64,000 nt of DNA from positions 14,880,001 through 14,944,000 of the forward strand of contig NC_043025.1 in the NCBI RefSeq assembly GCF_006345805.1, read 5' to 3'. The translations under genes and the position numbers were made by a program. The notes beneath the pieces were generated by a model. That model was not told the DNA's origin, ran no database searches, and saw only the letters and a list, made by a program, of their open reading frames with translations. Positions 9,686-39,591 of the stretch are shown here, piece by piece (positions within the stretch are counted from its first letter, which is position 1; each line of letters opens with the position of its first letter). The DNA is from Octopus sinensis (Eukaryota).

Positions 9686-10325
9686 AAATAGTGATCAATT
9701 TGGCTGCTACTTCTAATATTTTCGGTATGTGGTTTTGAGCAACTTGTTGCAATTAACCCTTTATTATAATTAATATAATCCTTACCAAATATGGTCTTTT
9801 CCATACCGATAAATCTACTAGGTGAAATTTATTAATTTTATTAAATTAATTATATTTCACCCTTTTTGCATATTGAATACTATTACTCCCTTACAAGAAA
9901 CCTGTGAAACTTCGTTTCGTTGGTAATGTTTTTGTAGCTCACGTGGTAATTTTGGAGGGAAATATGAATTTGCATGTCTGTATAAATGTAGGGGTGCTAG
10001 CAATCCGTTAGATCGTTCGATGTCGCTGGTCGAGCTGGTGTAACGGGTGAGTTTTGTTCCCCTAGCATTTCTAGATTTATAGGAAATATTATATTGACAA
10101 GGAATGAGCCTTCGGTTCTAATCCAGAAACGATTCGTCTATAATTAATCCATAGGCTGGGATTTTCGTTATTTTCTTCTTTTTGCCATATACAGGTTACA
10201 AATTCCTGTTTGTTTGTGGAGACTTTTTTAATATTAGGAGAAATAGTGATCATTTTGGCTGCTATTTCTAATATTTTCGGTATGTGGTTTTGAGCAACTT
10301 GTTGCAATTAACCCTTTATTATAAT
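9686..10325 (+). mobile_element. Penelope-like remnant with ~85-bp terminal direct repeats
   Basis: aaatagtgatca..ttattataat at 9686-9771 and 10241-10325; internal hammerhead; ends in a TA tract. Confidence 0.55.
10088..10144 (+). ncRNA. Type-I hammerhead ribozyme variant (U3-A8)
   Basis: ATTATA-TTGACAA-GGA..GAGCC ttc GGTTC..TCC-A-GAAAC-GATTC-GTC-TATAAT; perfect 6-bp stem I. Confidence 0.6.
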
Positions 10326-10347
10326 TTATATATATATATATATATAT

Positions 10348-11520
10348 ACTCAAATCGTCCTGTCGAAAGACCCTTGTCCTACGTCCTGGTTTTGTTTTGT
10401 TGTTTATTTTTTATTTTTACCGTTATTGTTTTTACGTTTTTGTATTCTTATTGGTGTCACGTATTCTGTATTTTTGTTTGTGTACTTCGATCGTTTTCCG
10501 TCCTTTCGTTGTATACATTCGAAGCTTTCTTCCAGGGGATCTAATGCGCTTGGCTTAGATTTCCCTTGGCGGGCTGGCCATATCGGAGCAATCTCAAGAT
10601 TAATCAGCCGAAATTGCTAAGATGATCTGGTTCTGACTGATGACTGAGGGCTTCGAATGTCCCGTCCTGTGGTTCTTGTGTCGTCTCTGTGGTGTTTCAT
10701 GTTCTTGTCCATGTCTGTATTTAATTTTACTGTTTACCTATATAATCGGCGGCTACGTATCCACAATTGTCCTTATACGATAAGTATTTTTTTTCTCAAG
10801 CTTTGATTACGACTCTTAATCTGTCTCTTTTTCTCTTCTCTCTCTCTCCTCCCTTATTCCACTTCCTTTCTTTCCCTCTCCATCCGTCCCCCCCCCCTTT
10901 CTACGTTTCTCTATCTCTCTCACCTCCAGCCCCCTCGATCTGTCTCTTTCTTCTTCTCCCTCGTCCACCTTCTCTCCCTTTTCATCTGTCCCTTTCTCCT
11001 GTCTTTTGTTCTCACGTGACAGCTAGCCGCTGTTGAGCGCTCTTTTCGTTTTCAGCAGCCTCAGAAGCAACACGTAGTTGTTCGTCTCCCCGTGGCCTTT
11101 AGGCACAACTTCACAAGCCAGCCCCTACTCAAATCGTCCCCGTCGAAAGACCCTTGTCCTACGTCCTGGTTTTGTGTTTGTTGTTTATTTTTTAATTTTT
11201 ACCGTTATTGTTTTTACGTTTTTGTATTCTTATTGTGTCACGTATTCTGTATTTTTGTTTGTGTACTTCGATCGTTTTCCGTCCTTTCGTTGTATACCTT
11301 CGAAGCTTTCTTCCAGGGGATCTAATGCGCTTGGCTTAGATTTCCCTTGGCGGGCTGGCCATATCGGAGCAATCTCAAGATTAATCACCGAAATTGCTAA
11401 GATGATCTGGTTCTTGACTGATGACTGAGGGCTTCGAATGTCCCGTCCTGTGGTTCTTGTGTCGTCTCTGTGGTGTTTCATGTTCTTGTCCATGTCTGTA
11501 TTTAATTTTACTGTTTACCT
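10348..11520. mobile_element. TA-flanked element with two ~390-bp direct repeats (10348-10740, 11127-11520); partial-tandem, possibly Penelope-like
   Basis: Near-identical copies around a pyrimidine-rich spacer; no TG..CA ends; class inferred only. Confidence 0.55.
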
Positions 11521-11624
11521 ATATATATATATATATATATATAAATATAAGTAGAAAATAGTCCCAAGCTGAGGAAAAGCTGCCTCATATATTATCTCAG
11601 CATTTTTGTTCGTTTCTTTTATGT

Positions 11625-12285
11625 TCAACTTGTTTCAGTCATGAAAGTGTGGCCATGCTGGGGCACTGCTTTATAGAATTTCAGGTAAATGAATCAACCC
11701 TGGGACTTATTTTTGATTTTTTATGCTCGATTCTTTTTGTATCGTTTATTATTATTATTATTATTTTTTTTTTTGCTGAATCACTAAGATACAGGGATGT
11801 AAACACACCAACTATACATACATAGATACATACACACATACCTACATATATACGCACACATACATAAATACATACATACACGACAGGCTTCTTTCAGTTT
11901 CCGTCTACCAAATCCACTCACAAGGCTTTGGTCAGCCTGAGCCGCTCACAAGGCTATTGTAGAAGACACTATGGTGCCATACCATGGGACTGAACCTAGA
12001 GCCTTGTGGTTGGGAAGCAAGCTTCTTATTTCTTTATTGCCCACAACGGGCTAAACATAGAGGGAACAAACAAGGACAGACAAAGGGATTAAGTCGATTA
12101 CATCGACCCCAGTGCGAAACTGGTACTTAATTTATCGACCCTGAATGGATGAAAGGCAAAGTTGACCTTCGGCGGAATTTGAACTCAGAACGTAGCGGTA
12201 GATGAAATACCTCTAAGCATTTCGCCCGGCATGCTAACGTTTCTGCCAGCTCGCTGCCTTCTTACCACACAACCAAGCCTGTGCC
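11625..12285 (-). mobile_element. SINE A copy interrupted by SINE B (about 12029-12258)
   Basis: SINE B sits within the SINE A head, flanked by a cttctta duplication. Confidence 0.8.
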
Positions 12286-12809
12286 CTGTATATGGGAGGG
12301 AGTCACTTTGTGTGTGTGTGTGTGTGTAAAGGAATGGTAGTTTGTTGTTAAATGTCTGAGACTGAAATACTTTTAATGAATTTGGGAGAATAATTGTGTT
12401 TTGGAAGTGAGAGCTTTGACCTACATCTTGTGTGTGTTTACATACATCTATATGTATGTGTGTACATGTATAGATATGTGTGTGTGTGTAAGTGTTTATA
12501 AGTGTGTGTGTATGTATGTTAACCTCTGTGTGTGTGTGTGTGTGGTAAGTGTTTAAACAATAGACAAAGAGGGAAGTTGTTATTTTGAAGTGGTCCGTGT
12601 GACATCTTTGTGCAAAAAGACCAGCTGTTTATTGAACTAATTGTCTGTAAAGAAATCCCAGCTGCCTGTTGAGGAATAAAACAAAGGACAAAGAATTTCT
12701 GGGATGGTTCTTTGAATGCCTTGCTTGTCCAGCAATGCCTGACTGTTTGATGTTTGCTTTGAATCTTCGGAAATCCTTGAACATTTGACTGAATATTATT
12801 GGACGAAAT

Positions 12810-13148
12810 GTTTAGGTATTTCGTCTGAGTTCAAATTCCGCTGAGGTCGATTTTGCCTTTCATTCTTACCAGTTGCGCACTGAGGTCGATGTAATCGACT
12901 TAATCCCTTTGTCTGTCCTTGTTTATCCTCTCTGTGTTTAGCCCCTTGTGGGTAATAAAGAAATAAGTATTTCGTCTGCCGTTACGTTCTGAGTTCAAAT
13001 TCTGCCGAGGTCGATTTTGCCTTTCATCCTTTCGGGGTCGATAAATTAAGTACCACTTGCGCACTGGTGTCGATGTAATCGACTTAATCCCTTTGTCTGT
13101 CCTTGTTTGTCCTCTCTGTGTTTAGCCCCTTGTGGGTAGTAAAGAAAT
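12810..13148 (+). mobile_element. SINE B tandem dimer (5' truncated)
   Basis: Two units joined at aaagaaataa|gtatttcgtctg. Confidence 0.8.
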
Positions 13149-13477
13149 TGATATAGGCACAGTTGTGGATGTGTTGTGGTAAGAACTTTGCTTCTGAACC
13201 ACAAGGTACTGGGTTCAGTCCACTGTGTGGAACTTTGGGCAAATATAAGGTCTTGGGGGTAAATTTGGTTGACAGAAACTGTATATACATATGTGTGTGT
13301 GTGTGCATGCACGAGCGCACACACACACACACTCACTCACACACACACTCACACACACGCACTCACTCACTCACTCACACACACTCACACACTCACACAC
13401 ACACACTCTCACACACACACTCTCACACACACACACTCACACACACACTCACTCACACACATGCACACACACACACA

Positions 13478-14300
13478 GGCGCAAGAGTGTGGCTGTGCGG
13501 TAGGAAGTTTGCTTCTCAGCCGGACGCTTGAGTTGACCATGCTGCTATGTTGTGGCACCTTGAGTTGACCAGAGCCTTGTGAGTGGATTTAGTGGATGGA
13601 AACTGAAGGAAGCCCATTGTGTGCGTGTTTGTGTGACTGTGCTTGTGTCTGCGTTTGTCCCCACCACTTGGAAACTGGTGTTGGTTTGTTTATGTCCCTA
13701 ACTTGGTGGTTTTGCAAAAGAGACTGATAGCCACAGGAGTGGCTGTGTGGTAAGTAGCTTGCTAACCAACCACATGGTTCCGGGTTCAGTCCCACAGCGC
13801 GCCATCTTGGGCAAGAGTCTTCTGCTATAGCCCCGGGCTGACCAATGCCTTGTGAGTGGATTTGGTAGACGGAAACTGAAAGAAGCCTGTCGTATATATA
13901 TATATATTATATATAGGTGCAGGAGTGGCTGTGTAGTAAGTAGCTTGCTTACCAACCACATGGTTCCGGGTTCAGTCCCACTGCGTGGCATCTTGGGCAA
14001 GTGTCTTCTGCTATAGCCCCGGGCCGACAAAAGCCTTGTGAATAGATTTGGTAGATGGAAACTGAAAGAAGACTGTCGTATATATGTATATATATGTGTA
14101 TGTGTTTGTCCCCCTAGCATTGCTTGACAACCGATGCTGGTGTGTTTACATTGCCGTCACTTAGCGGTTCGGCAAAAGAGACCAATAGAATAAGTACTGG
14201 GCTTACAAAGAATAAGTCCTGGGGTCGAGTTGCTTGACTAAAGGCGGTGCTCCAGCATGGCCACAGTCAAATGACAGAAACAAGTAAAAAAAAAAAAAAG
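13478..14300 (+). mobile_element. Nested/tandem SINE A copies
   Basis: Heads at ~13478, ~13733 and ~13916; tail ends at ~14290. Confidence 0.8.
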
Positions 14301-14399
14301 AATGAGCGCCAGTTTTAAGAAGAGAAAAGACTCTTCAAGGTGCTGCCCCAGCTTGGCCACCGTCTAATGACTGAAACAAGTACAAGGATAAAAGATACA

Positions 14400-14590
14400 G
14401 TTGCAAGGTTCAGAGACAACAGTTGGACCCATGCAGTTTCCACGTGGTCCTCAAGGGATCAGAAAAGGCCACTTGGAAAGGTTCCGTGATGGTGTGAAGA
14501 CAACATAGTTAAGTGATATGGGTCAATCAGGACAGAATTGGAAGCGCATTGTGACCAGTGGTGTCTAACAGCATTTGATGGCCTGGTCGA
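14400..14590 (+). pseudogene. Old RTE LINE C-terminal fragment
   Basis: VARFRDNSWTHAVSTWSSRDQKRPLGKVP*W resembles the RTE DxRW..W.P..KRP.GRP..RW motif. Confidence 0.55.
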
Positions 14591-14994
14591 TACTGCCATA
14601 CAGTGATATACACACGTAGGGTAACAAAGAGGTTGTAATCTAAGGTGTGACTTTGTTATAGTTGACCAAAAATTTGTGAATATATACACAATATGTGTAT
14701 ATATATATATATATATAAATTAAATTAGAGATAAAACCACTATTAGGCAAATCAAATAATGAAAACAACTAAAACATAAAAATAAAAATAATTAATATAA
14801 TATACAAAATTATAAAAATAAAATTTAAAATTTAAATTATTTACATTTTAAATTAAAATCATTAATTTATATTTATAAATTTTCATTTTTTTATTTTTTT
14901 TTTATTTTTTAATTAATTAATTATTTTTTTATTTATTTTATTTTTTAAATTAAATCTATCTAATTATCAAAAAGTATTAAAAGTTTAATATAAG

Positions 14995-15167
14995 ATATAT
15001 ATATGTATATAGTATATATAGTATGTGTATATTATATATGTATGTGTATGTATATATATGTATATATATATATATGTATGTTATGTATATATATTATATA
15101 TATATATATGTATTGTATGTATATATATGTATATATATATATATGTATGTGTATGTAGATATGTATG

Positions 15168-15203
<36 letters not shown>

Positions 15204-15221
15204 ATATATATAATATGTATG

Positions 15222-15254
<33 letters not shown>

Positions 15255-15317
15255 AATATATATATATATATATTATTAATGTATATATATATATTATATA
15301 TATATATATATATGTAT

Positions 15318-15350
<33 letters not shown>

Positions 15351-15413
15351 TGTATGTATATATATATATAACTATATATATATTATATATATATAATATA
15401 TGTATGTATATAA

Positions 15414-15457
<44 letters not shown>

Positions 15458-15564
15458 GTATGTATATATATATATGTTATATAGTTTGTTATATATATAT
15501 GTATATATATATATTGTATGTATATATATATATGTATCTATATATATATGTAATGTATATATAT

Positions 15565-15600
<36 letters not shown>

Positions 15601-15674
15601 GTATATATATATAATATAATATATAATATATATATGTTATTGTATTGTATATATATATCATATATATATATTTG

Positions 15675-15718
<44 letters not shown>

Positions 15719-15738
15719 ATATATATATATTATATATA

Positions 15739-15769
<31 letters not shown>

Positions 15770-15803
15770 TCTAATTTGTATGTATATATATAATATATAT
15801 ATA

Positions 15804-15847
<44 letters not shown>

Positions 15848-15883
15848 AATATATATATACTATATATATTATGTATATATATA

Positions 15884-15914
<31 letters not shown>

Positions 15915-15933
15915 TATATATATATATGTGTGT

Positions 15934-15974
<41 letters not shown>

Positions 15975-15997
15975 TTGTATATATATATATATATATA

Positions 15998-16044
<47 letters not shown>

Positions 16045-16489
16045 TATATATCTATATATATATCTATATGTTATATATATTATATGTGTGTATAAATATG
16101 TATATATATATCTGTATGTATGTATATATATGTATGTTGTATATATAATATATGTATGTATATATATGTATGTATGTATATATATGTATGTATGTATATA
16201 TATGTATGTATGTATATATATGTATTATGTATATATATGTATGTATATATATATATATGTATATATATATGTATGTATATATATATATGTATGTATATAT
16301 ATATATGTATGTATAATATATATGTATGTATATATATGTATGTATGTAATATGTGTATGTATGTTATATGTGTATGTATGTATATATGTGTATGTATGTA
16401 ATATGTGTATGTATGTATATATGTGTATGTATTTATATATGTGTATGTATGTATATATGTATATATATATATATGTATATATATATGTG

Positions 16490-16526
<37 letters not shown>

Positions 16527-16822
16527 GTATGGTATATTATGTATGTATGTATATGTATATATTGTATATGTATATATATGTAATGTATATATGTGTATCT
16601 GATATATTGTGTATGTATATATGTGTGTATGTATATGTGTGTTTTGTATGTTATATTGTGTGTATGTATGATGTGTGTGTGTATATATATGTATATGTGT
16701 ATATATATGTATATGCATGTATATGTATATGCATGTATATGTATATGCATGTATATGCATGTATGTATATATGTATGTATGTATATATATATATATATAT
16801 GTATATATATGTATGTATATAT
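14995..16822. repeat. 1.8-kb (TA)n/(TATG)n microsatellite
   Basis: Direct reading. Confidence 0.95.
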
Positions 16823-16878
16823 ATTAAGTATAGGAATGAATGGAGCTGAACGAAGATTTAACAAAATTCCTTTATTTT

Positions 16879-16964
16879 ATTTTCTACATATGTTTCGAAG
16901 TCTGCAAAGTCCCTAATTCCGATTGAATAAGGAGTCCATTTTGCAGCCTTCTCTTCAGGAAAAT
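16879..16964 (-). ncRNA. Type-I hammerhead ribozyme (canonical C3-G8)
   Basis: ATTTTC-CTGAAGA-GAAG.CTGCAAA..TTTGCAG.CTTC-GAAAC-ATAT-GTA-GAAAAT; perfect stem I, palindromic stem III ACAUAUGU. Confidence 0.8.
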
Positions 16965-17107
16965 CCAGGAACTTAATTCTCCAACAAAATGCACAACAAG
17001 CTTTTCGACAAACGCTCATGAGGAGCCCATGAAATTAATTTCATGGGCTCCTCATGACGTTTGTCGAAAAGCTTGTTGTGCATTTTGTTGGAGAATTAAG
17101 TTCCTGG

Positions 17108-17192
17108 ATTTTCTGAAGAGAAGGGCTGCAAAATGGACTCCTTATTCAATCGGAATTAGGACTTTGCAGACTTCGAAACATATGTCGAAAAT
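17108..17192 (+). ncRNA. Type-I hammerhead ribozyme (second palindrome arm, GUC site)
   Basis: CTGAAGA 17113-17119, GAAAC 17175-17179, GTC 17184-17186; stem I lacks one C. Confidence 0.7.
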
Positions 17193-17642
17193 AAAACGGA
17201 ATTTTGTTAAATCTTCGTTCAGCTCCATTCATTCCTATACTTAATATATAAAACTTCAAATTTCCGCACTAAGGCACGGATTTTATGCCCCCATGGTCGT
17301 AACTTCAACCGTGCTCTTTCTGTTGTGATTTTTGCTACCCAGGTATCGGTTATCATTTGAATTATCCGTAATAAGATAATTCATTTATCTACTTCATAAT
17401 TATATATGTATATATAATAATGTATGTATATATATATTGTATGTAATATATATATGTATATATATGTATGTATATATATATATGTATGTATATATATACA
17501 TGTATGTATATATATATACATGTATGTATATATGTATGTATATATGTATGTATATATATATATATATAATATATCTATATATATATGTATGTATATATGT
17601 ATGTATATATATATGTATGTATAATTACACACACACACACAT

Positions 17643-17965
17643 TATCATCATCATTCAACTTCCACTTTCCATGCTGGCATGGGTTGGATGGTTTGACTGA
17701 AACCTGGAAAGCTGGGGAGCTGCACCAGGTTCCAATCTAATTTGGTACGGTTTCTACAGCTGGATGTCTTTCCTAATGCCAACCACTCCAAGAGTGTAGT
17801 GAGTGCTCTTTAATGTGTCACTGGCACAGGTGCCAGTTACGTAACGCCAGCACCACCCACGACCCGGATCTCACTTGGCTTCACAGGTCTTCTCAAGCAT
17901 TGTATATTGCCAAAGGTCTCGGTCACTTGTCACTGTCTCTGTGAGGCCCAATGTTCAAAGGGTGC
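17643..17965 (-). mobile_element. RTE LINE 3' fragment (older copy)
   Basis: Tail homology plus ORF-end remnant matching 18820-18900. Confidence 0.7.
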
Positions 17966-18234
17966 CATACACACACACACACATATTTATCAATTCGTTT
18001 TGGAAGATTCCTGATGTGAAACTGTGTGTTGAAACAGATATTGTTGTATTTCAGGATGACCATTTTTTTGTTTTTCTTTTCTGCAAATAAACACTTCTAA
18101 GGAAACTGATCTTAGAAGAACAGAATGGAGTAAGTGGAGAAAGATGAAAATGAAAAGTGTTGCTGAAGAGGTCACAGATGTGTATGAAAGATTTCCAGGC
18201 AATGGACAAGAGTTCAAATAAGAACAGTAATAAA

Positions 18235-19345
18235 CATCATCATCGTTTAACGTCCGCTTTCCATGCTAGCATGGGTTGGACGATTTGACTGAGGACTGGC
18301 AAACCAGATGGCTGCACCAGGCTCCAATCTGATCTGGCAGAGTTTCTACTGCTTGATGCCCTTCCTAACGCCAACCACTCTGAGAGTGTAGTGGGTACTT
18401 TAATGTGCCACCGGCATGAGGGCCAGTCAGGCGGTACTTTTAACGTGTCACCTGCACAGGGGGTACTTTTTATGTGCCACCTGCACAGGAGCCAGTCCAG
18501 TGGCACTGGCAACGACCTCGCTTGAATGTTTTTTCATGTGCCCCCAGCACAAGTGCTAGTAAAATGACGCAGGTAACGATCATGCTTGAATGGTGTTTTT
18601 AACTTGCCATCAGAATGGAGGCCAGCTTGTTGCTCTGGCAACGATCTCACTCGTATGGTACTCTTAGCGCTCAACTAGCAATGGATGCCAGTCACCAAAT
18701 TTGTTGCCTCAACAGGTCTTCACAAACAGAGTTTAGTGTCCAGTGAAGGAAAGGCAGACATAAGTGGGCTGGGTACACCCCTGGCATAGGCCACAAGGTT
18801 ATGGTTTCACTTGCGCTTGCCAAGTCTTCTCAAGCACAGCATATTTCCAGAGGTCCCGGTCACTAGGCATGGCCTCGGTGAGGCCCAATGTTCGAAGGTC
18901 ATGCTTCACCACCTCATCCAAGGTCTTCCTGGATCTACCTCTTCCACAGGTTCCCTCAACCGCTAGGGTGTGGCACTTTTTCACACAGCTATCCACATCC
19001 ATTCTCACCACATGGCTATACCAGCGCTGTCGTCTCTTTTGCACACCACATCCGATGCTTCTTAGGTCCAACTTTTCTTTCAAGGTACTAACACTCTGTC
19101 GAGTATGCACACTGACATTACACATCCATCAGAGCATGCTGGCTTTATTCCTTGCGAGCTTACGCATGTCCTCAGCTGTCATAGCCCATGTTTCACTACC
19201 ATGTAGCATGGCTGTTCGTACACATACGTCGTACAGTCTACCTTTTGTTCTGAGCAAGAGGCCCTTTGTCACCAGCAGAGGTAAGAGCTCTCTGAACTTA
19301 GCCCAGGCTATTCTTATTCTAGCAGCTACACTTTCAGTGCACCCA
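18235..19345 (-). mobile_element. 5'-truncated RTE LINE: ORF C-terminus, 3'UTR and (GAT)n tail
   Basis: RIRIAWAKFRELLPLL..KGRLYDVCVRTAMLHGSETW..RWYSHVVRM..GRGRSRKT..DRDLWK; in-frame stop at ~19129. Confidence 0.9.
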
Positions 19346-19389
19346 AAAACATATATGGGGGGAAAAAAAAAGACCATCCCAAAATACAA

Positions 19390-19528
19390 TATAGCAGTGC
19401 TACATGTAGCTTAAATTCTGATTATTAAGCATAAAATACAAAATATCTTATGTTTTTGTAGATTAGGTAGGCATAATTCTCCCCTGCCTTTCAATCTCAG
19501 TATTTAAGCTACATGTAGCACTGCTGTA
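19390..19528. mobile_element. MITE with ~30-bp TIRs (Tc1/mariner-like, TA-flanked)
   Basis: tatagcagtgctacatgtagcttaaattctga ... tcagtatttaagctacatgtagcactgctgta. Confidence 0.65.
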
Positions 19529-20294: not shown

Positions 20295-20297
20295 CAC

Positions 20298-20328
<31 letters not shown>

Positions 20329-20485: not shown

Positions 20486-20536
<51 letters not shown>

Positions 20537-24169: not shown

Positions 24170-24640
24170 ACTAATGTAGGATAAAATTTTTTTCGGAAAA
24201 AATTTTTTTATCAAAGGCCAGCATATCAAAAAGTGCCTTTAAAGGTTAAATTTATAAATACCATATAAAATAAGGCCAAAAGAAAAATTCTAATGCTAAA
24301 TATGCTGAAAAAAACAAAACTGTCAATAACCATTATAATTTATGCGTCTCGAAGCAAGCCAATAGAAATTTCTAAAAAATCCATTATTACCGTATTGGTC
24401 CCAATTTCGGGGTTAATTTATAAGAATTTTCCCCTCCACAGTGATGAAGTCTTACGTATTTATCGCTGAGGAGGGGAAAATTCTTATGAATTAACCCTGA
24501 AATTGGGACCAATACAGTAATAACGGATTTTTTAGAAATTTCTATTCGCTTGTTTCGAGACGCATAAATTATAATGGTTATTAACAGTTTTGTTTTTTTT
24601 CGGCATATTTGGCATTAGAATTTTTCTTTTGCCCTTATCT
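24170..24640. mobile_element. Penelope-like inverted-repeat element (arms ~24270-24446 and ~24459-24638) with one-sided extension
   Basis: ~175-bp inverted arms, TA-flanked, hammerhead motif; single-arm relative at 62830-63015. Confidence 0.65.
24460..24520 (+). ncRNA. Type-I hammerhead ribozyme (C3-G8, AUA site)
   Basis: TTATCG-CTGAGGA-GGGG..CCCT-GAAA-TTGG-GA-CCAA-TA-CAGTAA (the other arm has CGGTAA). Confidence 0.65.
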
Positions 24641-28847: not shown

Positions 28848-29342
28848 ACATGGTAGCTAGACCTGGTAGAAATAGCAGCCAAATCTCACTCAAATCACAC
28901 CCTACTCTCTTATGTATGTATATATGTATGTATGAGCCAATGAGGGAGACCTCTACATGGTAGCTAGACCTAGTAGAAATAGCAGCCAAATCTCACTCAA
29001 ACCACACCCTACTCTCTTATTTATGTATATATGTATATATGAGCCAATGAGGGAAACCTCTACATGGTAGCTAGACCTGGTAGAAATAACAGCCAGATCT
29101 CCCTCAAACAACACCCTACTCTCTTATGTATGTATATATGTATGTATGAGCCAATGAGGGAGACCTCTACATAGTAGCTAGACCTGGTAGAAATAACAGC
29201 CAAATCTCCCTCAAACAACACCCTACTCTCTTATGTATGTATATATGTATGTCTGAGCCAATGAGGGTGTCCTCAACACGGTAGCTAGATCTGGTAGAAA
29301 TAGCAGCCAAATCTCCCTCAAATCACACCCTACTCTCTTATA
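28848..29342 (+). repeat. 107-bp tandem repeat, ~4.6 copies
   Basis: Same unit as 50685-53050. Confidence 0.9.
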
Positions 29343-30198: not shown

Positions 30199-30241
<43 letters not shown>

Positions 30242-30336
30242 GTATGATATAACCTCATATATACATAGATATATTCCCCCCTCACCCCTCTCCACCCCTA
30301 TATGACTCCTTTTTTCCTTTTTCTTTTTGAAGTGTC

Positions 30337-30600
30337 TTGAAGTGCACAGATGAAGCTATAAATAATGCCGTGTAAATATTGAGCTGAGAAAACTATTTTG
30401 GACCAAAAAAACAAATCGGTTTCTAAAATGGATTGAGAAATTCAAAGGATTGCTTTGGTCCGATGGTAGAACATCTGTCATGTTCAAAGAAGATGTAGGT
30501 TTGAGCCTCACTGGTAGCCTCTTTCACTTTCACTCTCCAAATGGTTTTCCAACCCAACATTTCCATGGTTCTATTTATTAGCTTCATGTGTGTGCTTCAA
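30337..30600. mobile_element. Putative MITE with ~28-bp TIRs enclosing a tRNA-like segment
   Basis: ttgaagtgcacagatgaagctataaata vs tatttattagcttcatgtgtgtgcttcaa; A/B-box-like motifs at ~30457-30512. Confidence 0.45.
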
Positions 30601-30651
30601 AATCCACCATTTCCAAAAAAATGATTTTTTTACATTCTTTGAAGAATTTAT

Positions 30652-31074
30652 GGATCTTTTCAGTTTGAACGGCAGTTTTTTCTAGCGGTGTCATATGAAA
30701 TTATCACCCATAATTATGACCCTAGTATCGATTTATTGCATTTCAATCTGTTTTAGGGTCAGGGTTAGGGTTAGGGGTAGGGGGAAGGGTATCTTTTTTT
30801 CTTCAGAAATGTAAATAAACCCAATCTGTTTCTTAAACAAGGGACATATTCATACGGCACGGAATGTTTTCACCTCAATAGACGTCATTGATTGGTTGAA
30901 ATTGCAGACATGGAAGAAAAACAACAACAAATATCTTACAAACTATAGAATTTTCTCAATAAAACCTAGAGAAAAAGATGTTTTATAAACACATTCTACC
31001 AGTATACGAAGTTTAAAAGTGTTTAGTTACGTGGAAATTATTTTAAAAAACTGCCGGTCAAACCGAAAAGATCC
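30652..31074. mobile_element. Non-autonomous DNA transposon, 30-bp TIRs, 8-bp TSD
   Basis: GGATCTTTTCAGTTTGAACGGCAGTTTTTT ... AAAAAACTGCCGGTCAAACCGAAAAGATCC; TSD gaatttat/aaatttat; deleted relative at 42455-42546. Confidence 0.85.
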
Positions 31075-31706
31075 AAATTTATTATAAAAAGGCATAGCTG
31101 TGTGGTCAGGAAGCCCACTTTGCAGCCAGTTGGTTTTGGGTTCAGTCCCACTGTGTGGTACCTTGGGGATACTATACTGTCAGACTAATCAATGCCCTAG
31201 ACATGGAAACTGAAAGGAAGCCTGTTCTACTGGGCTGTCCCTGTGATTCAGATACCAAGTAACCAGCTCCAAAAGATGATCCTCTTCAGCAAGACTGAGA
31301 CGGAAAGTTGGCCTCTTCATCTTGCATAAGCTTGTTTTGCTGCTGGCCTCAAGTGGCCTCTCATTTTGTGTAGGGTCCTTCCCATTTGGGGTGAGGGTCC
31401 CTGGCTATTAATAGGAAGGCATGGAGGTCTGTGTGTGATGCTGGAGTAGAACTCCTTTCACACTGAATGAAGGAGGCTGCATGAAGAGATCGGGGGTGAG
31501 GGGGGTGTTGAGACATCATCATCAACCCCTTGTGGCTGTCATCCGGGATCACTTTCAGTGCCCACAGCAACACAGGATCTGCCTGCCTCGGATCAGCCTG
31601 GTCAGCCATGTCCCCTCTGCTGCCATGTACCTGACAATGGATGTCATGGGTCAACGCTATCATCTTTGATGGGTCGACATAAGCCATGTAAGCACAAACA
31701 CACATA

Positions 31707-32230
31707 TCACCATCACCATCATCATCATCATCTTTTAGCATCTGCTTTTCTTGCTGGCATGGGTTGGTCTGTTTGACTGAAAACTGGTTAACCGGGTGGC
31801 TGCACCAGGTTCCAATCTGATTTGGCATGGTTCCTATGGTTGGATGCCCTTCCTAATGCCAACCACTCCAAGAGTATAGTGGGTGCTTTTTATGCGCCAC
31901 CAACATAGGTTATGCAGCATTAGCATCGGCCCCAACTCTGCCCTCATTTGGCTTGACAGGTCTTCCCAATCACAGTGTATCACCAAAGGGGTCGTTCACT
32001 TGTCACTGCCTCCATGAGGCCCAACATTTGAATGGTGCCTGACTGGCTCCTGTGCCAGTAGCACGTAAAAAGCACCCACTACACTCTTGGAGTGGTTGGT
32101 GTTAGGAAGGGCATCCAACTGTAGAAACACTGCCAGATCAGATTCGAACCTGGTGCAGCCTTCTGGCTTGCCAGTCCTTAGGCAAACTGTCCAACTCATG
32201 CCAACAGGGAAAATGGACGTTAAGTGATGA
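31707..32230. mobile_element. Two RTE 3' ends in opposite orientation
   Basis: Minus copy 31707-32030, plus copy 32040-32230. Confidence 0.7.
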
Positions 32231-32247
32231 TATATATATATATATAT

Positions 32248-32480
32248 AAGGCGGCGAGCTGGCAGAAACGTTAGAGCGCCGGGCAAAATGCTTAGCGGTA
32301 TTTCGTCTGTCGTTACTTTCTGAGTTCAAATTCCACCGAGGTCCACTTTGCCTTTCATCTTCTCGGGCTCGATAAATAAAGTACCAGTTTCGCACTGGGT
32401 CGATGTAATCGACTTAATCCCTTTGTCTGTCCTTGTTTGTCCCCTCTCTATGTTTAGCTCCTTGTGAGTAGTAAAGAAAG
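32248..32480 (+). mobile_element. SINE B, full-length monomer
   Basis: ggcggcgagctggcagaaacgttag..gagttcaaattcc..gtaaagaaa. Confidence 0.85.
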
Positions 32481-32526
32481 ATATATACATATATATATCA
32501 TCATCATCATCATCATCGGACGCTAA

Positions 32527-32558
<32 letters not shown>

Positions 32559-32580
32559 ATATATATATATGTAGACATAT

Positions 32581-32612
<32 letters not shown>

Positions 32613-33002
32613 TTATATATATATGCATATATATATGTATATATTTATGTTGTGTGTGTGATTTCGTGTTTGTCCCCACCACTGCTCAACAGCCAGTGTA
32701 GGTTTGTTTACATCCCTGCAACTTAAGAGTTTGGCAAAAGAGACCAATAAAATAAATACCAGATTTAAAACAAAAAAAAACCCCCATAAATACTAGGGTT
32801 GAGTCGTTCAACTAAAACATTCCGAGGTGATGCTCCAGTATGGCCATAGTTAATAACCGAAATAAATGGGAGATAAAATATAAGATGTTATGCATGTGTG
32901 GTGTGTGTGTGTGTGTGGCCAAGTGTACATAGAGGTGAGTGTATGTGTATATTGGTGAGCATAAAGAGGTGTGTGGGTATATAGAGCTGGGTGTATATAT
33001 AT

Positions 33003-33353
33003 ACTCTTTTACTTGTTTCAGTCATTTGACTGCGGCCATGCTGGAGCACAACCTTTAGTCGAGTAAATCGACCCCGGGACTTATTCTTTGTAAGCCCAGT
33101 ACTTATTCTATCGGTCTCTTTTGCCGAACCGCTAAGTAACGGGGACATAAACACACCAGCATCGGTTGTCAAGCAATGCTAGAGGGACAAACACAGACAC
33201 ACAAACACACACATGCATATATATATACATATATACGACAGGCTTCTTTCAGTTTCCGTCTACCAAATCCACTCACAAGGCATTGGTCGGACCGATGCTA
33301 TAGGAGAAGACACTTGCCCAAGGTCCTACTTACCACACAGCCACTCCTGCGCC
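33003..33353 (-). mobile_element. SINE A with small head deletion
   Basis: Family A sequence. Confidence 0.82.
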
Positions 33354-33381
33354 TATATACATATATATATATATCTATATA

Positions 33382-33413
<32 letters not shown>

Positions 33414-33954
33414 CATATATATATATATACATATACATATATATGCTATCTCTTATTATAAAAGGCAGATTTTATCTGCCTCCCTTTGGGAGTTATACAA
33501 ATCTACAATATAGGATTTCTTCAATTACAATTTACCTAGCATTTTTAAGAGTACAATGCATCGCGTCATGCCAGGTCCAGTTTTCAAAATTTAAACTCCA
33601 ATTAAGCAAAATTTACAGAAAACTCACATTCTGGTGTGTGTGTCAAATGCTTTTCTTAGTCTGGTTTACACCACACGCAAACGCACACACACAGTGGGCA
33701 ACGAATAAAATGAAACTAATTCACTTACTGTAGTGAGTGATTCTTTCACTCTGCTTCCCACTTCCTCTTTCCACACATAGACACGCAAATATATAAATAA
33801 AATTGTAAGCTAACGTGCGTGTGTGTCAGTGTGTGTGTGTGTGTGTGCGCGTGTGTGTGTGTGTGAGGGTGCGTGTGTGTGTGTGTGTGTGCGTGAGTGT
33901 GTGACAGGAAAGTTTTTTACGATGAATATAAGACCTATATCCAAGTAGCAGAAA

Positions 33955-34218
33955 GATAAGACAGTAAGGTGTGATTTGAGGGAGATTTGGCTGCTATTTC
34001 TACCATGTCTAGCTGCCATGTAGGGGTCTCCCTCATAGGCTCATACATATATACATAGATAAGACAGTAAGGTGTGATTTGGGGGAAATTTGGCTGCTAT
34101 TTCTACCAGGTCTAGCTACCATGTAGAGGTCCCCCTCATTGGCTCATATATATATATACATACATAAGACAGTAAGGTGTGATTTGAGGGAGATTTGGCT
34201 GCTGTTTCTACCAGGTCT
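33955..34218 (-). repeat. 107-bp-family tandem repeat, ~2.5 copies, inverted
   Basis: gtgtgatttgagggagatttggctgctatttctacc repeated. Confidence 0.85.
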
Positions 34219-34581
34219 GTTAGGCCTTCTCATGTAAACTCAAGCTTTCTCATGCCTTGAACATAAGACCAAAGCAGAGAATGTATTCTTTTATTCTTCT
34301 GCTTTTTCCAGCCATTGGTCTGTGGCCATGCTGGGGCAATGCCTTGAAGAATTGTAGTTTAATGAATCAACTCCAGTTTTATTTTTGTAAGCATTGTACT
34401 TATTCTATCTGTTTCCTTTGTCAAACACTAGGTGACAGGGATGTAAACAAACCAACATTCGTTGTCAAGCAGTGGTGGAGGACAATCACAAGCACAGACA
34501 CGCACACACACACACATACATGCATACACATATACACACATACATACATACATACATATATATATTGTGTGTATATATATA

Positions 34582-34905
34582 TTGCAGCGTGGAAGGTGTT
34601 TGTAAGCCATTTAAGAAACACACAAAAACCGTTAGATTCACTTCAACATTTAAATTTAATTTGTCAAAATATTTTCGTCGCTTTGAGACCGCGACCTGTT
34701 CACTGACAAAAATATCGTGCTAACAGGTCGCGGTCTCAAAGCGACGAAAATATTTTGACAAATTAAATTTAAATGTTGAAGTGAATCTAACGGTTTTTGT
34801 GTGTTTCTTAAATGGCTTATAAACACCTTCAACGCTGCAACTGTTTTCGTTCCAGCACACGATCTCAGATCAAGTCACTTGCTATGCAAGTACATCTCTG
34901 TAACT
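34582..34905. mobile_element. Penelope-like inverted-repeat element (arms 34582-34700 and 34722-34840) plus extension
   Basis: ~119-bp near-perfect inverted arms, 21-bp spacer, TA-flanked, hammerhead variant. Confidence 0.65.
34660..34710 (-). ncRNA. Minimal type-I hammerhead variant (G3-C8)
   Basis: TTTGTCA-GTGAACA-G-GTCGC-loop-GCGAC-GAAA-ATAT-TT-TGACAAA; 7-bp stem I, 5-bp stem II. Confidence 0.65.
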
Positions 34906-35000
34906 ATATATATATTTATATATATATATATATGTATATTGGTAAAAACAGTAGATAACAAAAGAAAGAAGAGACCTCAATATTATGTAAATAGAGGAAA

Positions 35001-35395
35001 TCTTTATATATAAAAGTGAGGTTGTGTGTCTGTCTCTTACGATTTAGATTCCTAACTACTCCCACATTTTGCGGTGCAGTTTAACCAAAACCGGGTATCT
35101 TATAGTCGTGATTCATATCGAGACCGTCTGGGTATTAGCGCGCGTCTACGATGAGTCTATGATTTAAAAAAAAATTTAGCATCAATTTTTCCCATTGTTA
35201 ATCCATTTTTGACATATATAAGGGAAGTAACTCTCTAAAATTTATTATTAAATCTCAGAACGTAAAAAGCTACAGTAACACCCCTCCCCCTTTGTGGTTA
35301 GCCATATTGAGATGGCTATTATACTTTACATCTCTAAAAATGCTTATATAATTATTTCCCTTACAAACCTGAGCAACGCTGGGCGATACTGCTAG
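35001..35395 (+). mobile_element. Non-autonomous Helitron
   Basis: A|TC start, hairpin cctgagcaacgctggg, CTAG|T end, no TSD. Confidence 0.85.
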
Positions 35396-36321
35396 TGTAT
35401 GTATATTTATTTGCACATCTACTCAAGTTTATATAAAGAAACTTTACAATGGTGGGGTGGTGGTAGTGGCGGTGATGGTGGTGGTGGTAGTGGTGGTGGT
35501 GCAGGTGGGTGTTGGTGCTGCTGCTGATGGTGGTGTTGATGGGGTGTTTCAGGTGCCAGTGTGGTGACTGTAGTGGCAGTAGTTGTGGTAGTGGTAGCAG
35601 TGTTGAGATCACCATCACCACTACCACCACCGTTGCCGTCACCAACATCACCCCACCATCCTCCACCACTACAGTCCCTGCTGTCACCTGCATCTTCCCC
35701 AACCACCACTCCCATCACCACAATCTACTAGAAACAACAGTGAAATCTCCCTTCCATGATGTGGTGCTGAGTATCTTGCCAACAGGATGGTCACAGAAGG
35801 AATGTCTTCGATAATAAGTCAGCATAATTAGGAATGACTTTGGGTTAAACATCATCATCATCACCATCAACGACAACAACTGCTGACCTCAATGTAGTTG
35901 TGCTACAAGCAAGAAATAGCAGCCAAATCTCTCATATCTCAGCAACTGATATAAGGATATAAGCTTACTTTAAATTGATGGAAGGGTCGTGGCTGGAACG
36001 TCTTTGTTCAGTGGTCAGCTGGATCAAGGTTGACTTGGGACTAAACGACAACAACAAACTTATCTGAATGTGGTTGTACCACGTGCAAGAAATAGCAGCC
36101 AAAACTCCCTCATATCACACCACACCAACAAATACAAGTGCAGGATACATGACCTCAGGTCATTAAGAAAGAAATGTCTGACGGTCGTTAATTCTGTTTT
36201 ATCCTGTTTTTACATTTAAGAGTTACATCATCGCTTTTTGAAATGCAATTCATGGTGTCTGATTATATTTTGAGTTTTCTCTTACAAATCAATTTTCGTG
36301 AATTCATGGCCGACTGATTTC

Positions 36322-36622
36322 AAGCGAGGTCATTGCCAGTGCCACTGGACTGGATCCTGTGCAGGTGGCACATAAAAACACCAATTGAGCATGGTATTGC
36401 CAGTACCACCTGACTGGCCCCCGTGCCGGTGGCAATTAAAAAGCATCCACTGCACTCTCGGAGTGGTTGGCGTTAGGAAGGGCATCCAGCTGTAGAAACT
36501 CTGCCAGATCGAGATTGGAGCCTGGTGCAACCATCTGGTTTGCCAGGCCTCAGTTAAAATCGTCCAACCCATGCTAGCATGGAAAGTGGATGTTAAACGA
36601 TGATGATGATGATGATGATGAT
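36322..36622 (+). mobile_element. RTE 3' end inserted in mariner
   Basis: Family tail ending in (GAT)n. Confidence 0.8.
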
Positions 36623-36879
36623 GGATAGATAAAAAATTTGTGTTTTTTATGAATATGAGTTCCATCGTGGAACCAATGCATCCCAGACAGCTTGAAACAT
36701 CAGTTGAGGTGTTTGGTGAAGATGTGAATGAGTGCACTGTGCATCGATGGTTTGAGAAGTCTTAGTCTGTTGAGTTTAATCTTGAAAATAAGCCCCATGG
36801 TAGACCTGAGACCAAGGTGGATAATGATGAGCTGGAAACTGTGGCGGAAGCAGATACATCTTAAACTATATGTGATTTA

Positions 36880-37281
36880 AGGCGGCGAGCTGGCAGAAAC
36901 GTTAGCACACCGGGCGAAATGTGTTGCCGTATTTCGTCTGCCACTACGTTCTGAGTTCAAATTCCGCCGAGGTCGACTTTGCCTTTCATCCTTTCAGGGT
37001 CGATAAATAAAGTACCAGTTACGTACTGGGGTCGATGTAATCGACTTAATCTGTTTGTCTGTCCTTGTTTGTCCCCTCTATGTTTAGCCTCTTGTAGATA
37101 GTAAAGAAATAGGTATTTCGTCTGCCACTACATTTTGAGTTCAAATTCTGCCGAGGTCGACTTTGCCTCTCATCCTTTCAGGGTCGATAAATAAAGTACC
37201 AGTTTCGCACTGGAGTCGATGTAATCGACTTAATCTGTTTGTCTCCTCTGTGTTTAGCCCCTTGTGGGTAGTAAAGAAATA
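36880..37281 (+). mobile_element. SINE B tandem form inserted in mariner
   Basis: 13-bp TSD tatatgtgattta on both sides. Confidence 0.88.
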
Positions 37282-37769
37282 TATATGTGATTTAGCAGCA
37301 AGGTTTGATGTTTTGATTCCAACTGTATTGGACCATCTGAAACAAATCGGCAAGATAAAGAAGCTGGACAAGTGGGGACCACACGAACCGAATGAGCATC
37401 AAATGACACATTGTCTTCAAACTTGTTGTTCATTGTTGTCAGAGCATAAAAGCGAACCATTTTTGCATCATATTGTTGCGTGTGATGAAAAATGGATTCT
37501 TTTTAACAATAGCAAGTGTTCTGTATGGTGGTTGGATAGAGACGAAGTGCCAAAACACAATCCAAAAAAGAATATTCACCAAAAATAGCCAATGGTGTCT
37601 GTTTGGTGGCCCAGTGCTGGTGTCATCCACTACAGCTTCATGAGACCAGGTAAGTCAATTACAGCAGATGTATACATCAACCAATTGGATGAAATGATGA
37701 GTGAACTTGCAATTAAACAACCATCATTGGTCAACAGAGACTGGTCAATCCTCTTGCAAGACAATGCTT

Positions 37770-37987
37770 ACTCTTTTACTCTTTACTCTTTTACTTGTTT
37801 CAGTCATTTAACTGTGGCTATGCTGGAGCACCGCCTTTAGTCGAGCAAATCGACCCTGGGACTTATTCTTTGTAAGCCCAGTACTTATTCTATGAGTCTC
37901 TTTTGCCGAACCGCTAAGTAACAGGGACGTAAACACATCAGCATCTGTTGTCAAGCAATGCTAGGGGGGACAAACACAGACACACAA

Positions 37988-38028
<41 letters not shown>

Positions 38029-38190
38029 CACAACAGGCTTCTTTCAGTTTCCGTCTACCAAATCCACTCACAAGGCATTGGTCAGCCCGAGGCTATAGTA
38101 GAAGACACTTGCCCAAGGTGCCACGCAGTGGGACTGAACCCGGAACCATGTGGTTGGTAAACAAGCTACTTACCACACAGCCACTCCTGC
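37770..38190 (-). mobile_element. SINE A inserted in mariner transposase
   Basis: Splits the QDNA|*PH motif. Confidence 0.88.
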
Positions 38191-39268
38191 TTGACCACAT
38201 GTTGCACAAATAACACTATTCAAGTTACAGGAACTGGATTTGGAACTACTCTGCCATCCACCATATTCACCAGACCTTGCACCAACTGACCATCATGTTT
38301 TCCAGGCATTAGACAAACTTTTGCAAGGGAAAAACTTCAAATCTGAAAAAGATGCCAAAACAGCCTTTCGGGATTTTATTATCTCTTGCTCTGCAGAATT
38401 CTTTGTTTCCGGCATAAATAAGCTACCAATAAAATGGCAAGATTGTGTTGATAATTTAGGTGATTACTTTGATTAACTGCATTAACTTTCAGTTCAAAAT
38501 TGGATGTTTCATTCTTAAGGATCTGATATAATGTAGCCTTGTACATTTACTTTAAATCCACAGGTTGGTCATGATTGGAACGTCTTTGTTCATCGAACAG
38601 CTGTATCATGGTTGGCCTAGGGCTAAACAATCACAACACCCACAGATTTCCATAACAATACAATGATTGGATTTTGTGGTGGCCACCAGTTGCAAACAGA
38701 TGGTGCACTCCAAGTGCAAACATGCACACACAGTTTTGCTGTCGTTGTTTTTGTTGGTGGTGGTGGTCATGGGGGTGGTGGCGGTGGTGATGGTGGTGGT
38801 GGCGGTGGTGGTGGTGATGGCGGTGAGGGTGGTGGTGGCAGCAGTGGTGGGGTGTTGTCACTGTTTGGTGTCAATGTTTTCTTTGTCTTTCATTGATTAT
38901 TTAATGAAATACATTTATACATACACAGACGCATACACACATACACTTATACATTGCATTCATACAAGCATACACAGATATAGAGTTACTCATACATTCA
39001 CATTCACACACATACATATACATATCTTGCATTCATGCATACACACACACATGCATTGACATAAACTCCCACATACACGTTAGTCAATACACACACATGT
39101 TCATATATATGGTGTGTGTTTGTGTACATATATATATATAATGTATATATAATATATGTATATATAATATATCATGTATATATAATATATATAATATATA
39201 TAATATATTAATATATATATATATATATTATATATATTATATATATATATTATATATATATATGTGTG

Positions 39269-39346
<78 letters not shown>

Positions 39347-39556
39347 AATATGTTATGAAAGAAAGTATAAAATACACGTGGAAATGTAAGGGTAAAATAT
39401 GAAAAATCAACGAAAATGCATATTGCAGATAGAAAAAGGCTATTTATGACAGGTAACGGCAAATATATACATTTAGATTAACTGAGGTAGTAATACGAGT
39501 CATAAAAGTCATTATTATGAGATGATTATAAGATGATAATAAAGTAAGAGGACAAA

Positions 39557-39591
39557 ACAGACCAGTGGTTTACGCAAAGGCTATTCATTGT
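39557..39591 (-). ncRNA. Minimal hammerhead-like variant (A3-U8, extra U in GUAAA)
   Basis: ACA-ATGAATA-GC-cttt-GC-GTAAAC-CACTG-GTC-TGT; short stems, weakest of the variants. Confidence 0.35.

What the first reader, a model, noticed from the sequence alone, without database searches (positions are those of the whole stretch)
10088..39591. Unrelated hammerhead-bearing elements showing all four Watson-Crick forms of the 3-8 core pair
Seen: type-I hammerhead folds with cores CUGAAGA (16879-16964 -, 17108-17192 +), CUGAGGA (24460-24520 +), UUGACAA (10088-10144 +), GUGAACA (34660-34710 -) and, more weakly, AUGAAUA (39557-39591 -). Each has a GAAA-type motif, an NUH site and complementary stem I, and they belong to otherwise unrelated TA-flanked elements. 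Established: positions 3 and 8 pair in the active hammerhead, and Penelope-like retroelements carry minimal hammerheads in their pseudo-LTRs. Inference: compensatory change suggests selected ribozyme function, and CUGANGA-only searches would miss these families. The association itself is known; this family set may not be catalogued.
Basis: partly seen in the sequence, partly recalled or inferred. Interest (0 to 1): 0.75.

Follow-up and report, generated by a model that had tools for sequence, protein, structure and literature searches.

The report
Swapped-core hammerheads in Penelope retrotransposons
Five jumping-gene families in this animal genome carry hammerhead-ribozyme-shaped RNAs whose core base pair comes in all four Watson-Crick forms, including two (G-C and A-U) that I could not find reported as natural, which likely reflects selection for a self-cutting fold that standard searches miss, though cutting is untested.

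Summary
Observation confirmed. The six sites belong to five repeat families, and the 3-8 pair is fixed per family: C-G (A, 98 of 100 listed matches; B, 40 of 45), U-A (C, 28 of 28), G-C (D, 92 of 100; 5,276 matches in the genome), A-U (E, 97 of 100). A, B, D and E are terminal repeats of Penelope-like retroelements (PLEs), with GIY-YIG-type endonuclease ORFs upstream on the same strand. C is an ORF-less 555-560-nt tandem unit, retrozyme-like. All have the self-complementary stem III of dimer-type minimal hammerheads. In 990 kb of unselected DNA a relaxed descriptor gave 15 strong hits (13 Watson-Crick) against 0 in 4 shuffles. A D-related element from another record has A3-U8. Limits: the pair does not covary inside any family, the window's B and E copies have broken stem I, E has a 2-bp stem II and an extra U, and genomic copies do not start at the cut site. 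PLE hammerheads and natural U3-A8 are published; G3-C8 I found only as an engineered rescue, and A3-U8 not at all; three key papers were unavailable. This scan noted the same purine-3 cores before in another genome (e1-9866753).

The parts
9689..10328 (+). Family C element: about 1.15 units of a 555-560-nt ORF-less repeat (start of unit repeated at 9689 and 10244), retrozyme-like
   Evidence: window, and tandem arrays of 560-nt and ~540-nt period in L287, L358; no shared ORF found upstream in 94 oriented hits (output partly cut)
10088..10144 (+). Hammerhead C: U3 (10094)-A8 (10099), extra A before G12, palindromic stem III, predicted cut after C17 (10138)
   Evidence: 28 of 28 pattern matches U3-A8; 45 of 45 parsed copies
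16823..17248 (.). Family A: two pLTR copies back to back (inverted), between (TA)n runs; Hydra-type PLE
   Evidence: EN ORF ends about 570 nt upstream on the same strand in L093, L096, L099, L104, L108, L111, L117, L118; DKT motif in L118
16879..16964 (-). Hammerhead A: C3 (16958)-G8, long stem II, 8-nt perfect palindrome as stem III, predicted cut after A17 (16885)
   Evidence: 98 of first 100 of 232 matches C3-G8
17108..17192 (+). Hammerhead A, second arm: C3 (17113)-G8, stem I shortened to 4 bp, predicted cut after C17 (17186)
24308..24599 (.). Family B inverted pLTR pair; the minus arm has a decayed core (A6 to U) and lacks the family's 5' stem-I strand; Hydra-type EN remnant upstream in L122
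   Evidence: (I16)
24460..24520 (+). Hammerhead B: C3 (24466)-G8 (24471), predicted cut after A17 (24514); stem I has a C-A mismatch in this copy
   Evidence: 40 of 45 matches C3-G8
33442..35396 (+). About 1.95-kb multi-copy unit that carries the window's D copy as a passenger; ends look Helitron-like (signature recalled)
   Evidence: 96.7% over 1,965 nt to L379
34582..34895 (.). Family D pLTR with a partial inverted copy; PLE with a Nematis-like GIY-YIG endonuclease
   Evidence: L281 shows inverted pLTR, EN ORF, 3' UTR and hammerhead in one element; Pfam GIY-YIG above cut-off
34660..34710 (-). Hammerhead D: G3 (34703)-C8 (34698), extra G after A9, 5-bp stem II, 7-bp stem I, AAUAUU palindrome, predicted cut after U17 (34667)
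   Evidence: z -2.55; 92 of first 100 of 5,276 matches G3-C8; no variant of 5% or more at 3 or 8 in 4 runs of 4 organism labels
39345..39592 (-). Family E solo pLTR, 5'-truncated inside stem I; Neptune-type PLE
   Evidence: L349 holds hammerhead, ORF pieces (GxKF, DKG, RT, linker, GIY-YIG), hammerhead over about 4 kb
39557..39591 (-). Hammerhead-like motif E: A3 (39588)-U8 (39583), 2-bp stem II, extra U between G12 and A13, predicted cut after N17 (39560); decayed in this copy
   Evidence: 97 of first 100 of 105 matches A3-U8
62943..63017 (-).

Best explanation
These are minimal type-I hammerhead motifs in the terminal repeats of four Penelope-like retrotransposon families and one ORF-less tandem element, each family fixed for one Watson-Crick form of the 3-8 core pair, likely because selection keeps a cleavage-competent fold while the base identities drift. 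Shown: the motifs, their family-wide fixation, their place downstream of PLE ORFs, and that common subfamily differences fall mostly on free positions. Inferred: two copies in a tandem transcript, or two RNAs, pair through the palindromic stem III; 3-8 pairs whatever its bases, placing the 2'-OH of residue 8 as general acid; cleavage after N17 is slow, probably helped by the element's own protein, and trims or circularises a minority of transcripts, while most new insertions are copied from uncut RNA. The genomic copies seen here, many in inverted pairs, are mostly dead remnants. I put real, site-specific cleavage at about 0.9 for A and B, 0.8 for C, 0.65 for D and 0.4 for E.
For: Fixation per family with N left open at 3 and 8: (reversed-pattern controls 0). 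Unselected 990 kb: 15 hits at score 12 or more, 13 Watson-Crick, 0 in 4 shuffles; the 5 hits with both 3 and 8 changed from C-G (4 distinct elements) are all Watson-Crick, about p 0.01-0.02 by hand against 1/3 per family; the 2 non-pairing hits are one change from C-G. ORF links. Common variants sit at N7 (B: A 13, G 10, C 5 of 28), N17 (A: C 23, A 16 of 40; E: U 34, C 14 of 49), loop II (D, E), the palindrome centre (C, E) or give G-U wobbles (D stem I 6 of 41; C stem II). Stem III forms a self-duplex but no hairpin alone in all five. Homologous swaps: D-related element L374 (EN 38% to D) has A3-U8 in its pLTR between tandem ORFs; related small elements L228/L023 (U3-A8) and L294 (C3-G8), about 62% alike. 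Literature: C3G/G8C partly restores cleavage of a PLE hammerhead, which needs its protein (PMC11167929, passages); the G-C swap is the one rescue in pairwise mutagenesis (PMC9901934, passages).
Against: No cleavage data. No double change within any family (0 of 373 listed matches), so covariation rests on between-family comparison, one L374 copy (stem I 3 bp, fold z 0.01) and single copies L228, L023, L294. L375, another D-related element, has an unpaired A3-A8, and L229 has C3-A8. In PMC9901934 all double mutants in this region except the G-C swap had low activity, which counts against A3-U8 and U3-A8 in that construct. In minimum-energy folds G3 pairs with U17 (D) and A3 with U17 (E), extending stem I, the kind of pairing blamed for inactivity of G17 variants (PMC3884650 passages). 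D's palindrome is weak (-0.2 kcal/mol). E has a U between G12 and A13; the insertion described in PMC3088659 is U13a, one position away. Only about 4 of 100 D and 3 of 100 E matches begin at or within 4 nt of the cut site, counted by eye. Eight of nine single-strand folds are not better than shuffles (z between -1.5 and 0.01; only D is). My descriptor was relaxed after seeing the window's sites.
Confidence: 0.72

Rival explanations
1. The fold and the 3-8 pair are kept for a non-catalytic role, such as a binding or dimerisation site for the PLE protein; the purine-3 forms, E above all, no longer cut.
For: Hammerhead mutants did not affect PAc insertion in vitro and no RNA ends were found at the cut site (PMC11167929); copies begin upstream of an intact motif; E has a 2-bp stem II and an insertion next to G12; N3-N17 pairing in D and E folds.
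Against: U4, G5, A6, A9, G12, A13, A14, the 15.1-16.1 pair and H17 are all kept in every family majority, and N17 varies among C, A and U with G in 1 of 203 parsed copies (the patterns allowed G17), as expected for catalysis.
Confidence: 0.2
2. The motifs are relics of ordinary C3-G8 hammerheads, and the Watson-Crick match at 3-8 in C, D and E is chance fixation in single founder elements plus selection of examples by the reader.
For: Each family is one founder event; C, D and E were picked because they pair; unpaired A3-A8 (L375) and C3-A8 (L229) exist.
Against: In unselected DNA 4 of 4 distinct doubly changed elements pair, 6 of 6 clusters over all held loci; D spans several subfamilies and 4 organism labels with G3-C8 unchanged; L374 has the other purine-3 pair.
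Confidence: 0.07
3. The matches are by-products of inverted repeats and AT-rich sequence, not hammerheads.
For: A, B and D sit in long inverted repeats; the window copy of E scores at chance level; no Rfam hammerhead among the listed matches.
Against: The stems lie within one arm; 15 versus 0 hits in shuffles; a fixed position downstream of PLE ORFs as in published PLEs.
Confidence: 0.01

Closest known systems
Minimal type-I hammerheads of metazoan Penelope-like elements (Cervera and De la Pena 2014, PMC4209133; parts 1-2 of 4 of the text and part 2 of 3 of supplementary file 2 read)
   Same: pLTR location, palindromic short stem III, extra nucleotide after A9 (D), tandem and opposite-strand pairs, U3-A8 variant in Schistosoma.
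   Different: No G3-C8 or A3-U8 core among the rows of Fig. S3 that I saw (about 44 of 56, a few more); extra A before G12 in C and extra U after G12 in E.
Natural hammerhead core variants (Perreault et al. 2011, PMC3088659; outline and sections 8-9 read)
   Same: U3-A8 covariation, 2-bp stem II and a U insertion in the GAAA strand are reported.
   Different: The text names only C3-G8 to U3-A8, and U13a rather than a U between G12 and A13; figures and supplements not seen.
Hydra, Neptune and Nematis PLE clades (Craig et al. 2021, PMC8557442; passages, section 11, supplement part 2 and search hits read)
   Same: A and B show Hydra features (DKT, CxxC after the YIG region, TA insertion); E shows Neptune features (GxKF, DKG, CxxxxCxxC linker, CCHH); D's EN has a short Nematis-like linker.
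   Different: All hammerheads in their File S2 are CUGANGA; Hydra-1_Obim is another family; the RT of D's relatives (L373, L374) differs from the nematode Nematis rows, so D's clade is not settled.
Metazoan non-LTR retrozymes (PMC7229834 passages; bioRxiv 10.64898/2026.07.22.740005 parts 1-2 of 5)
   Same: Family C is an ORF-less tandem unit with one type-I hammerhead per unit and more-than-unit-length insertions.
   Different: Unit 555-560 nt, U3-A8 core, inverted 5' arms like PLE insertions; circular RNA not tested.
Engineered C3G/G8C hammerheads (PMC11167929, PMC9901934, PMC8495972, PMC3884650; passages)
   Same: Same G3-C8 pair as family D; partial rescue of cleavage.
   Different: Laboratory mutants; here it is the fixed natural state of thousands of copies.

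Membership tests
Type-I hammerhead ribozyme | Conserved core U4 G5 A6 A9 G12 A13 A14 with A15.1-U16.1 and H17 | tested here: met
   Family majorities; insertions in C (before G12), D (after A9), E (after G12)
Type-I hammerhead ribozyme | Watson-Crick pair between positions 3 and 8 | tested here: met
Type-I hammerhead ribozyme | Canonical C3-G8 (CUGANGA) | tested here: not met
   Met for A and B; not met for C, D, E
Type-I hammerhead ribozyme | Stems I, II and III around the core | tested here: met
   Met at family level; stem III only as an intermolecular duplex; E stem II 2 bp; window copies of B and E damaged
Type-I hammerhead ribozyme | Match to an Rfam hammerhead model | tested here: inconclusive
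   None among 150 listed of 232 matches at E up to 1; 82 rows not shown
Type-I hammerhead ribozyme | Site-specific self-cleavage after N17 | not testable with these tools
   Only contig-type runs were available
Penelope-like retroelement | C-terminal GIY-YIG endonuclease ORF upstream of the pLTR on the same strand | tested here: met
   D and E: Pfam GIY-YIG above cut-off; A: Hydra-type EN by comparison with PMC8557442 alignment rows, no Pfam hit; B: one remnant, L122; C: none found
Penelope-like retroelement | PLE-type reverse transcriptase in the same element | tested here: inconclusive
   Met by motifs for E (L090, L329, L349; no Pfam RT hit); N-terminal DKT part only for A; for D seen only in relatives L373, L374; not seen for B, C
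Penelope-like retroelement | Partial tandems and inverted 5'-truncated arms, insertion into (TA)n | tested here: met
Non-LTR retrozyme (family C) | ORF-less tandem units, each with a type-I hammerhead | tested here: met
   L287 and L358
Non-LTR retrozyme (family C) | Accumulation as circular RNA | not testable with these tools

The most novel reading that the evidence does not exclude
Whole PLE lineages use active purine-3 hammerheads: a Nematis-like lineage switches between G3-C8 and A3-U8 across hosts, and a Neptune family cuts with A3-U8 plus a U next to the general base G12. The natural core is then NUGANN'A, and a sizeable class of retroelement ribozymes has been missed by CUGANGA searches, including in PLE families scored as ribozyme-free.
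Probability: 0.4. Interest if true: 0.68.

Novelty: new variant of a known kind. Interest (0 to 1): 0.5.

Why it matters
The 3-8 pair was established by engineered swaps; a genome that holds all four forms as fixed, high-copy natural families is the evolutionary counterpart. It supplies natural test sequences for whether base identity or only pairing matters, and for whether the PLE protein rescues weak cores. In practice, descriptors fixed on CUGANGA miss at least 5,276 D matches here and would undercount ribozyme-bearing PLEs. It also bears on the open question of what PLE hammerheads do: a pair kept through two base changes argues for selection, while copies starting upstream of an intact motif argue that uncut RNA is the usual template.

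Tried and rejected
Rfam scan: only microsatellite and hairpin miRNA noise among listed rows. Best-hit DNA search for D returned copies of one larger composite unit, so L001-L030 are not independent insertions and were left out of the D counts. Cross-family MAFFT alignment did not put the cores in register and was not used; no covariance model was built. Sequencing runs: no RNA holder listed; all were contigs, so RNA ends and expression could not be read. No peak of copy starts at the cut site. No ORF for family C (outputs 40 and 43 were partly cut). No RT for D in L282-L285, L376-L378, L380. No hammerhead found downstream of the D-like EN in L340; L373 ends at its ORF. Viral contigs held no relative. 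An A3-U8 hit at window 36649 has a non-palindromic stem III and drops out of the stricter scan; treated as chance. A rule that N17 avoids pairing with N3 fits the four U3 elements (all C17) and D (U17, not C17) but not E, where U17 is the majority; left as a lead. Lunse 2017, Hammann 2012 and Przybilski and Hammann 2007 were not held and may already report these cores; supplementary file 1 of PMC4209133 was not searchable, and bioRxiv supplements are closed.
Full report
Setting. The window is G000:C29:14880001-14944000 of a 2.72-Gb assembly, rich in (TA)n runs and interspersed repeats. I call the five families A (16879-16964 -, 17108-17192 +), B (24460-24520 +), C (10088-10144 +), D (34660-34710 -) and E (39557-39591 -).

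The observation. All six motifs are present as described. A descriptor with any base at 3 and 8, stems I and II, and a palindromic stem III recovers both A copies, C and D at scores 12-14.5, against 0.053 hits of 12 or more per shuffled window in 150 shuffles. E's window copy scores 7.5, within chance (0.8 per shuffled window). B's window copy is missed because its stem I has a C-A mismatch. The descriptor was relaxed after I had seen these sites, and the shuffle moves dinucleotide blocks within 200-nt windows. Rfam lists no hammerhead among 150 shown of 232 matches.

Family state of the 3-8 pair. Exact patterns with N at 3 and 8 were counted genome-wide; reversed controls gave 0. D: 5,276 matches, 92 of the first 100 G3-C8, 8 single changes. 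C: 28 of 28 U3-A8. E: 105 matches, 97 of the first 100 A3-U8. B (N7=G subset only): 40 of 45 C3-G8. A: 232 matches, 98 of the first 100 C3-G8. These are lower bounds, since other positions had to match exactly. None of the 373 listed matches has both bases changed, so no family covaries internally. In public contig sets, D shows no variant of 5% or more at 3 or 8 in 4 runs from 4 organism labels, and E none of 4% or more in the 3 of 4 runs that cover its core; one of these may be the assembly's own source.

What the families are. A: an endonuclease ORF ends about 570 nt upstream of the hammerhead on the same strand in 8 of the 30 best-hit loci, and L118 continues into the next ORF start with a DKT motif. 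The sequence matches the Hydra rows of PMC8557442 by eye; Pfam gives no hit. B: one locus of 30, L122, has a Hydra-type EN end upstream. D: L281 holds an inverted pLTR arm, a GIY-YIG ORF (Pfam above cut-off), a 1-kb 3' UTR and the hammerhead, and the inverted arm mirrors that UTR. The EN looks Nematis-like; the clade is not settled. E: RT and GIY-YIG ORFs lie upstream in L083, L090, L323, L329, L348; L349 spans hammerhead to hammerhead over about 4 kb with Neptune-type motifs, broken and partly inverted. C: no ORF; 540-560-nt tandem units in L287 and L358, and the window copy is about 1.15 units, as in non-LTR retrozymes.

Evidence for selection on the fold. Among parsed held copies (A 40, B 28, C 45, D 41 after dropping L001-L030, E 49; copies that did not fit the parsing pattern are not counted) the common variants fall at N7, N17, loop II and the centre of the stem-III palindrome, or give G-U pairs. 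One exception: a stem-I-breaking change at 7-12% in E (place 7455). Stem III cannot fold alone but forms a self-duplex in all five (-7.0, -12.3, -7.7, -0.2, -8.2 kcal/mol for A-E), the dimer design of PMC4209133. In 99 stretches of 10 kb taken at fixed positions, 15 hits score 12 or more: 8 C-G, 3 U-A, 2 G-C, 1 C-A, 1 A-G; four shuffles give 0. The 5 hits with both bases changed come from 4 distinct elements and all pair (about p 0.01-0.02 by hand). Two homologous comparisons point the same way. L374, a metagenome contig whose EN is 38% identical to D's, has an A3-U8 motif with an extra G and a palindromic stem III between two tandem ORF copies; its stem I is only 3 bp. L228 and L023 (U3-A8) are about 62% alike to L294 (C3-G8). 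Against: L375, also D-like, has A3-A8, and L229 has C3-A8.

How it likely works. From established hammerhead chemistry (G12 general base, 2'-OH of residue 8 general acid; PMC6155905 passages), the 3-8 pair positions a ribose, so any Watson-Crick pair can in principle serve. C3G/G8C partly restores a PLE hammerhead that cuts only with its protein (PMC11167929). I infer slow, dimer- and protein-assisted cleavage after N17. It is probably not the main route to new insertions: about 4 of 100 D and 3 of 100 E matches, selected only on sequence 3' of the cut, begin at or near the cut; most keep the whole motif, and many E copies begin within about 13 nt upstream of the core (counted by eye). This agrees with uncut RNA being the template in PMC11167929. 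Doubts are greatest for E: 2-bp stem II, a U between G12 and A13, A3-U17 pairing in the majority subfamily, and low activity of non-G-C swaps in PMC9901934. A, B and D window copies lie in long inverted repeats, so a read-through transcript would tend to form the long hairpin instead (inference).

Comparison with print. PLE hammerheads, the palindromic stem III, the extra base after A9 and natural U3-A8 are published (PMC4209133; PMC3088659). Nine literature searches, four of them with 3-8 terms or core strings, gave G3-C8 only as an engineered mutant and no A3-U8. The hammerhead tables I saw (Fig. S3 rows of PMC4209133, File S2 of PMC8557442) hold no purine-3 core. This is not proof of absence: Lunse 2017, Hammann 2012 and Przybilski and Hammann 2007 were not held. 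An unreviewed note of this scan (e1-9866753) reached the same reading in another genome; it is not independent support.

Verdict. A real feature and mostly a known kind: minimal PLE and retrozyme hammerheads. The new part is G3-C8 and A3-U8 as fixed natural cores of high-copy families, with a D-related element elsewhere carrying the other purine-3 pair. Cleavage is untested. New variant of a known kind; interest 0.5.

Noticed in passing
window 33442-35396: The D copy is a passenger in a ~1.95-kb unit found at 96-97% identity on many contigs (the 40 scored matches are 99-100% over the D part; shared flanks seen in the 30 loci printed). It starts TC after A and ends in a hairpin and CTAG before T, a Helitron-like signature (recalled). 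A DNA element appears to be spreading a ribozyme-bearing PLE end.
   Followed up: partly
L281:2240-2265 (-), family D: A branch-point-like and polypyrimidine-CAG motif lies about 20 nt upstream of the core, and many copies begin there; possibly the 3' splice site of a pLTR intron, as described for Drosophila Penelope.
   Followed up: no
L151-L249 and flanks of other loci: About 20 further hammerhead families or single copies with palindromic stem III, mostly C3-G8, three more U3-A8 elements; roughly 15 strong motifs per Mb.
   Followed up: partly
L228, L023, L229, L294: Related small elements with U3-A8, C3-A8 and C3-G8 cores and double changes in stem II; a possible path between the pairs.
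   Followed up: partly
L374:1496-1540 and L375:1034-1082: D-related PLEs from metagenome records with A3-U8 and A3-A8 motifs downstream of the ORF.
   Followed up: partly
U3 elements (C, L228/L023, L229:2542, L244) and D: All four U3 elements have C17, none A17, and the G3 family has U17; N17 may avoid pairing with N3, but E does not fit.
   Followed up: partly
window 62943-63017 (-): Another B copy without G12.
   Followed up: yes
window 47073-47866; 37139-38476; 18799-19410: Remnants of a non-LTR element with RT and endonuclease, mariner-like transposase pieces and an RTE-like LINE piece (names from recall).
   Followed up: no
L117, L118, L370 (family A ORF): A long Asn/Ser-rich insertion stands where Hydra elements have their Cys linker, before the GIY-YIG domain.
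   Followed up: no
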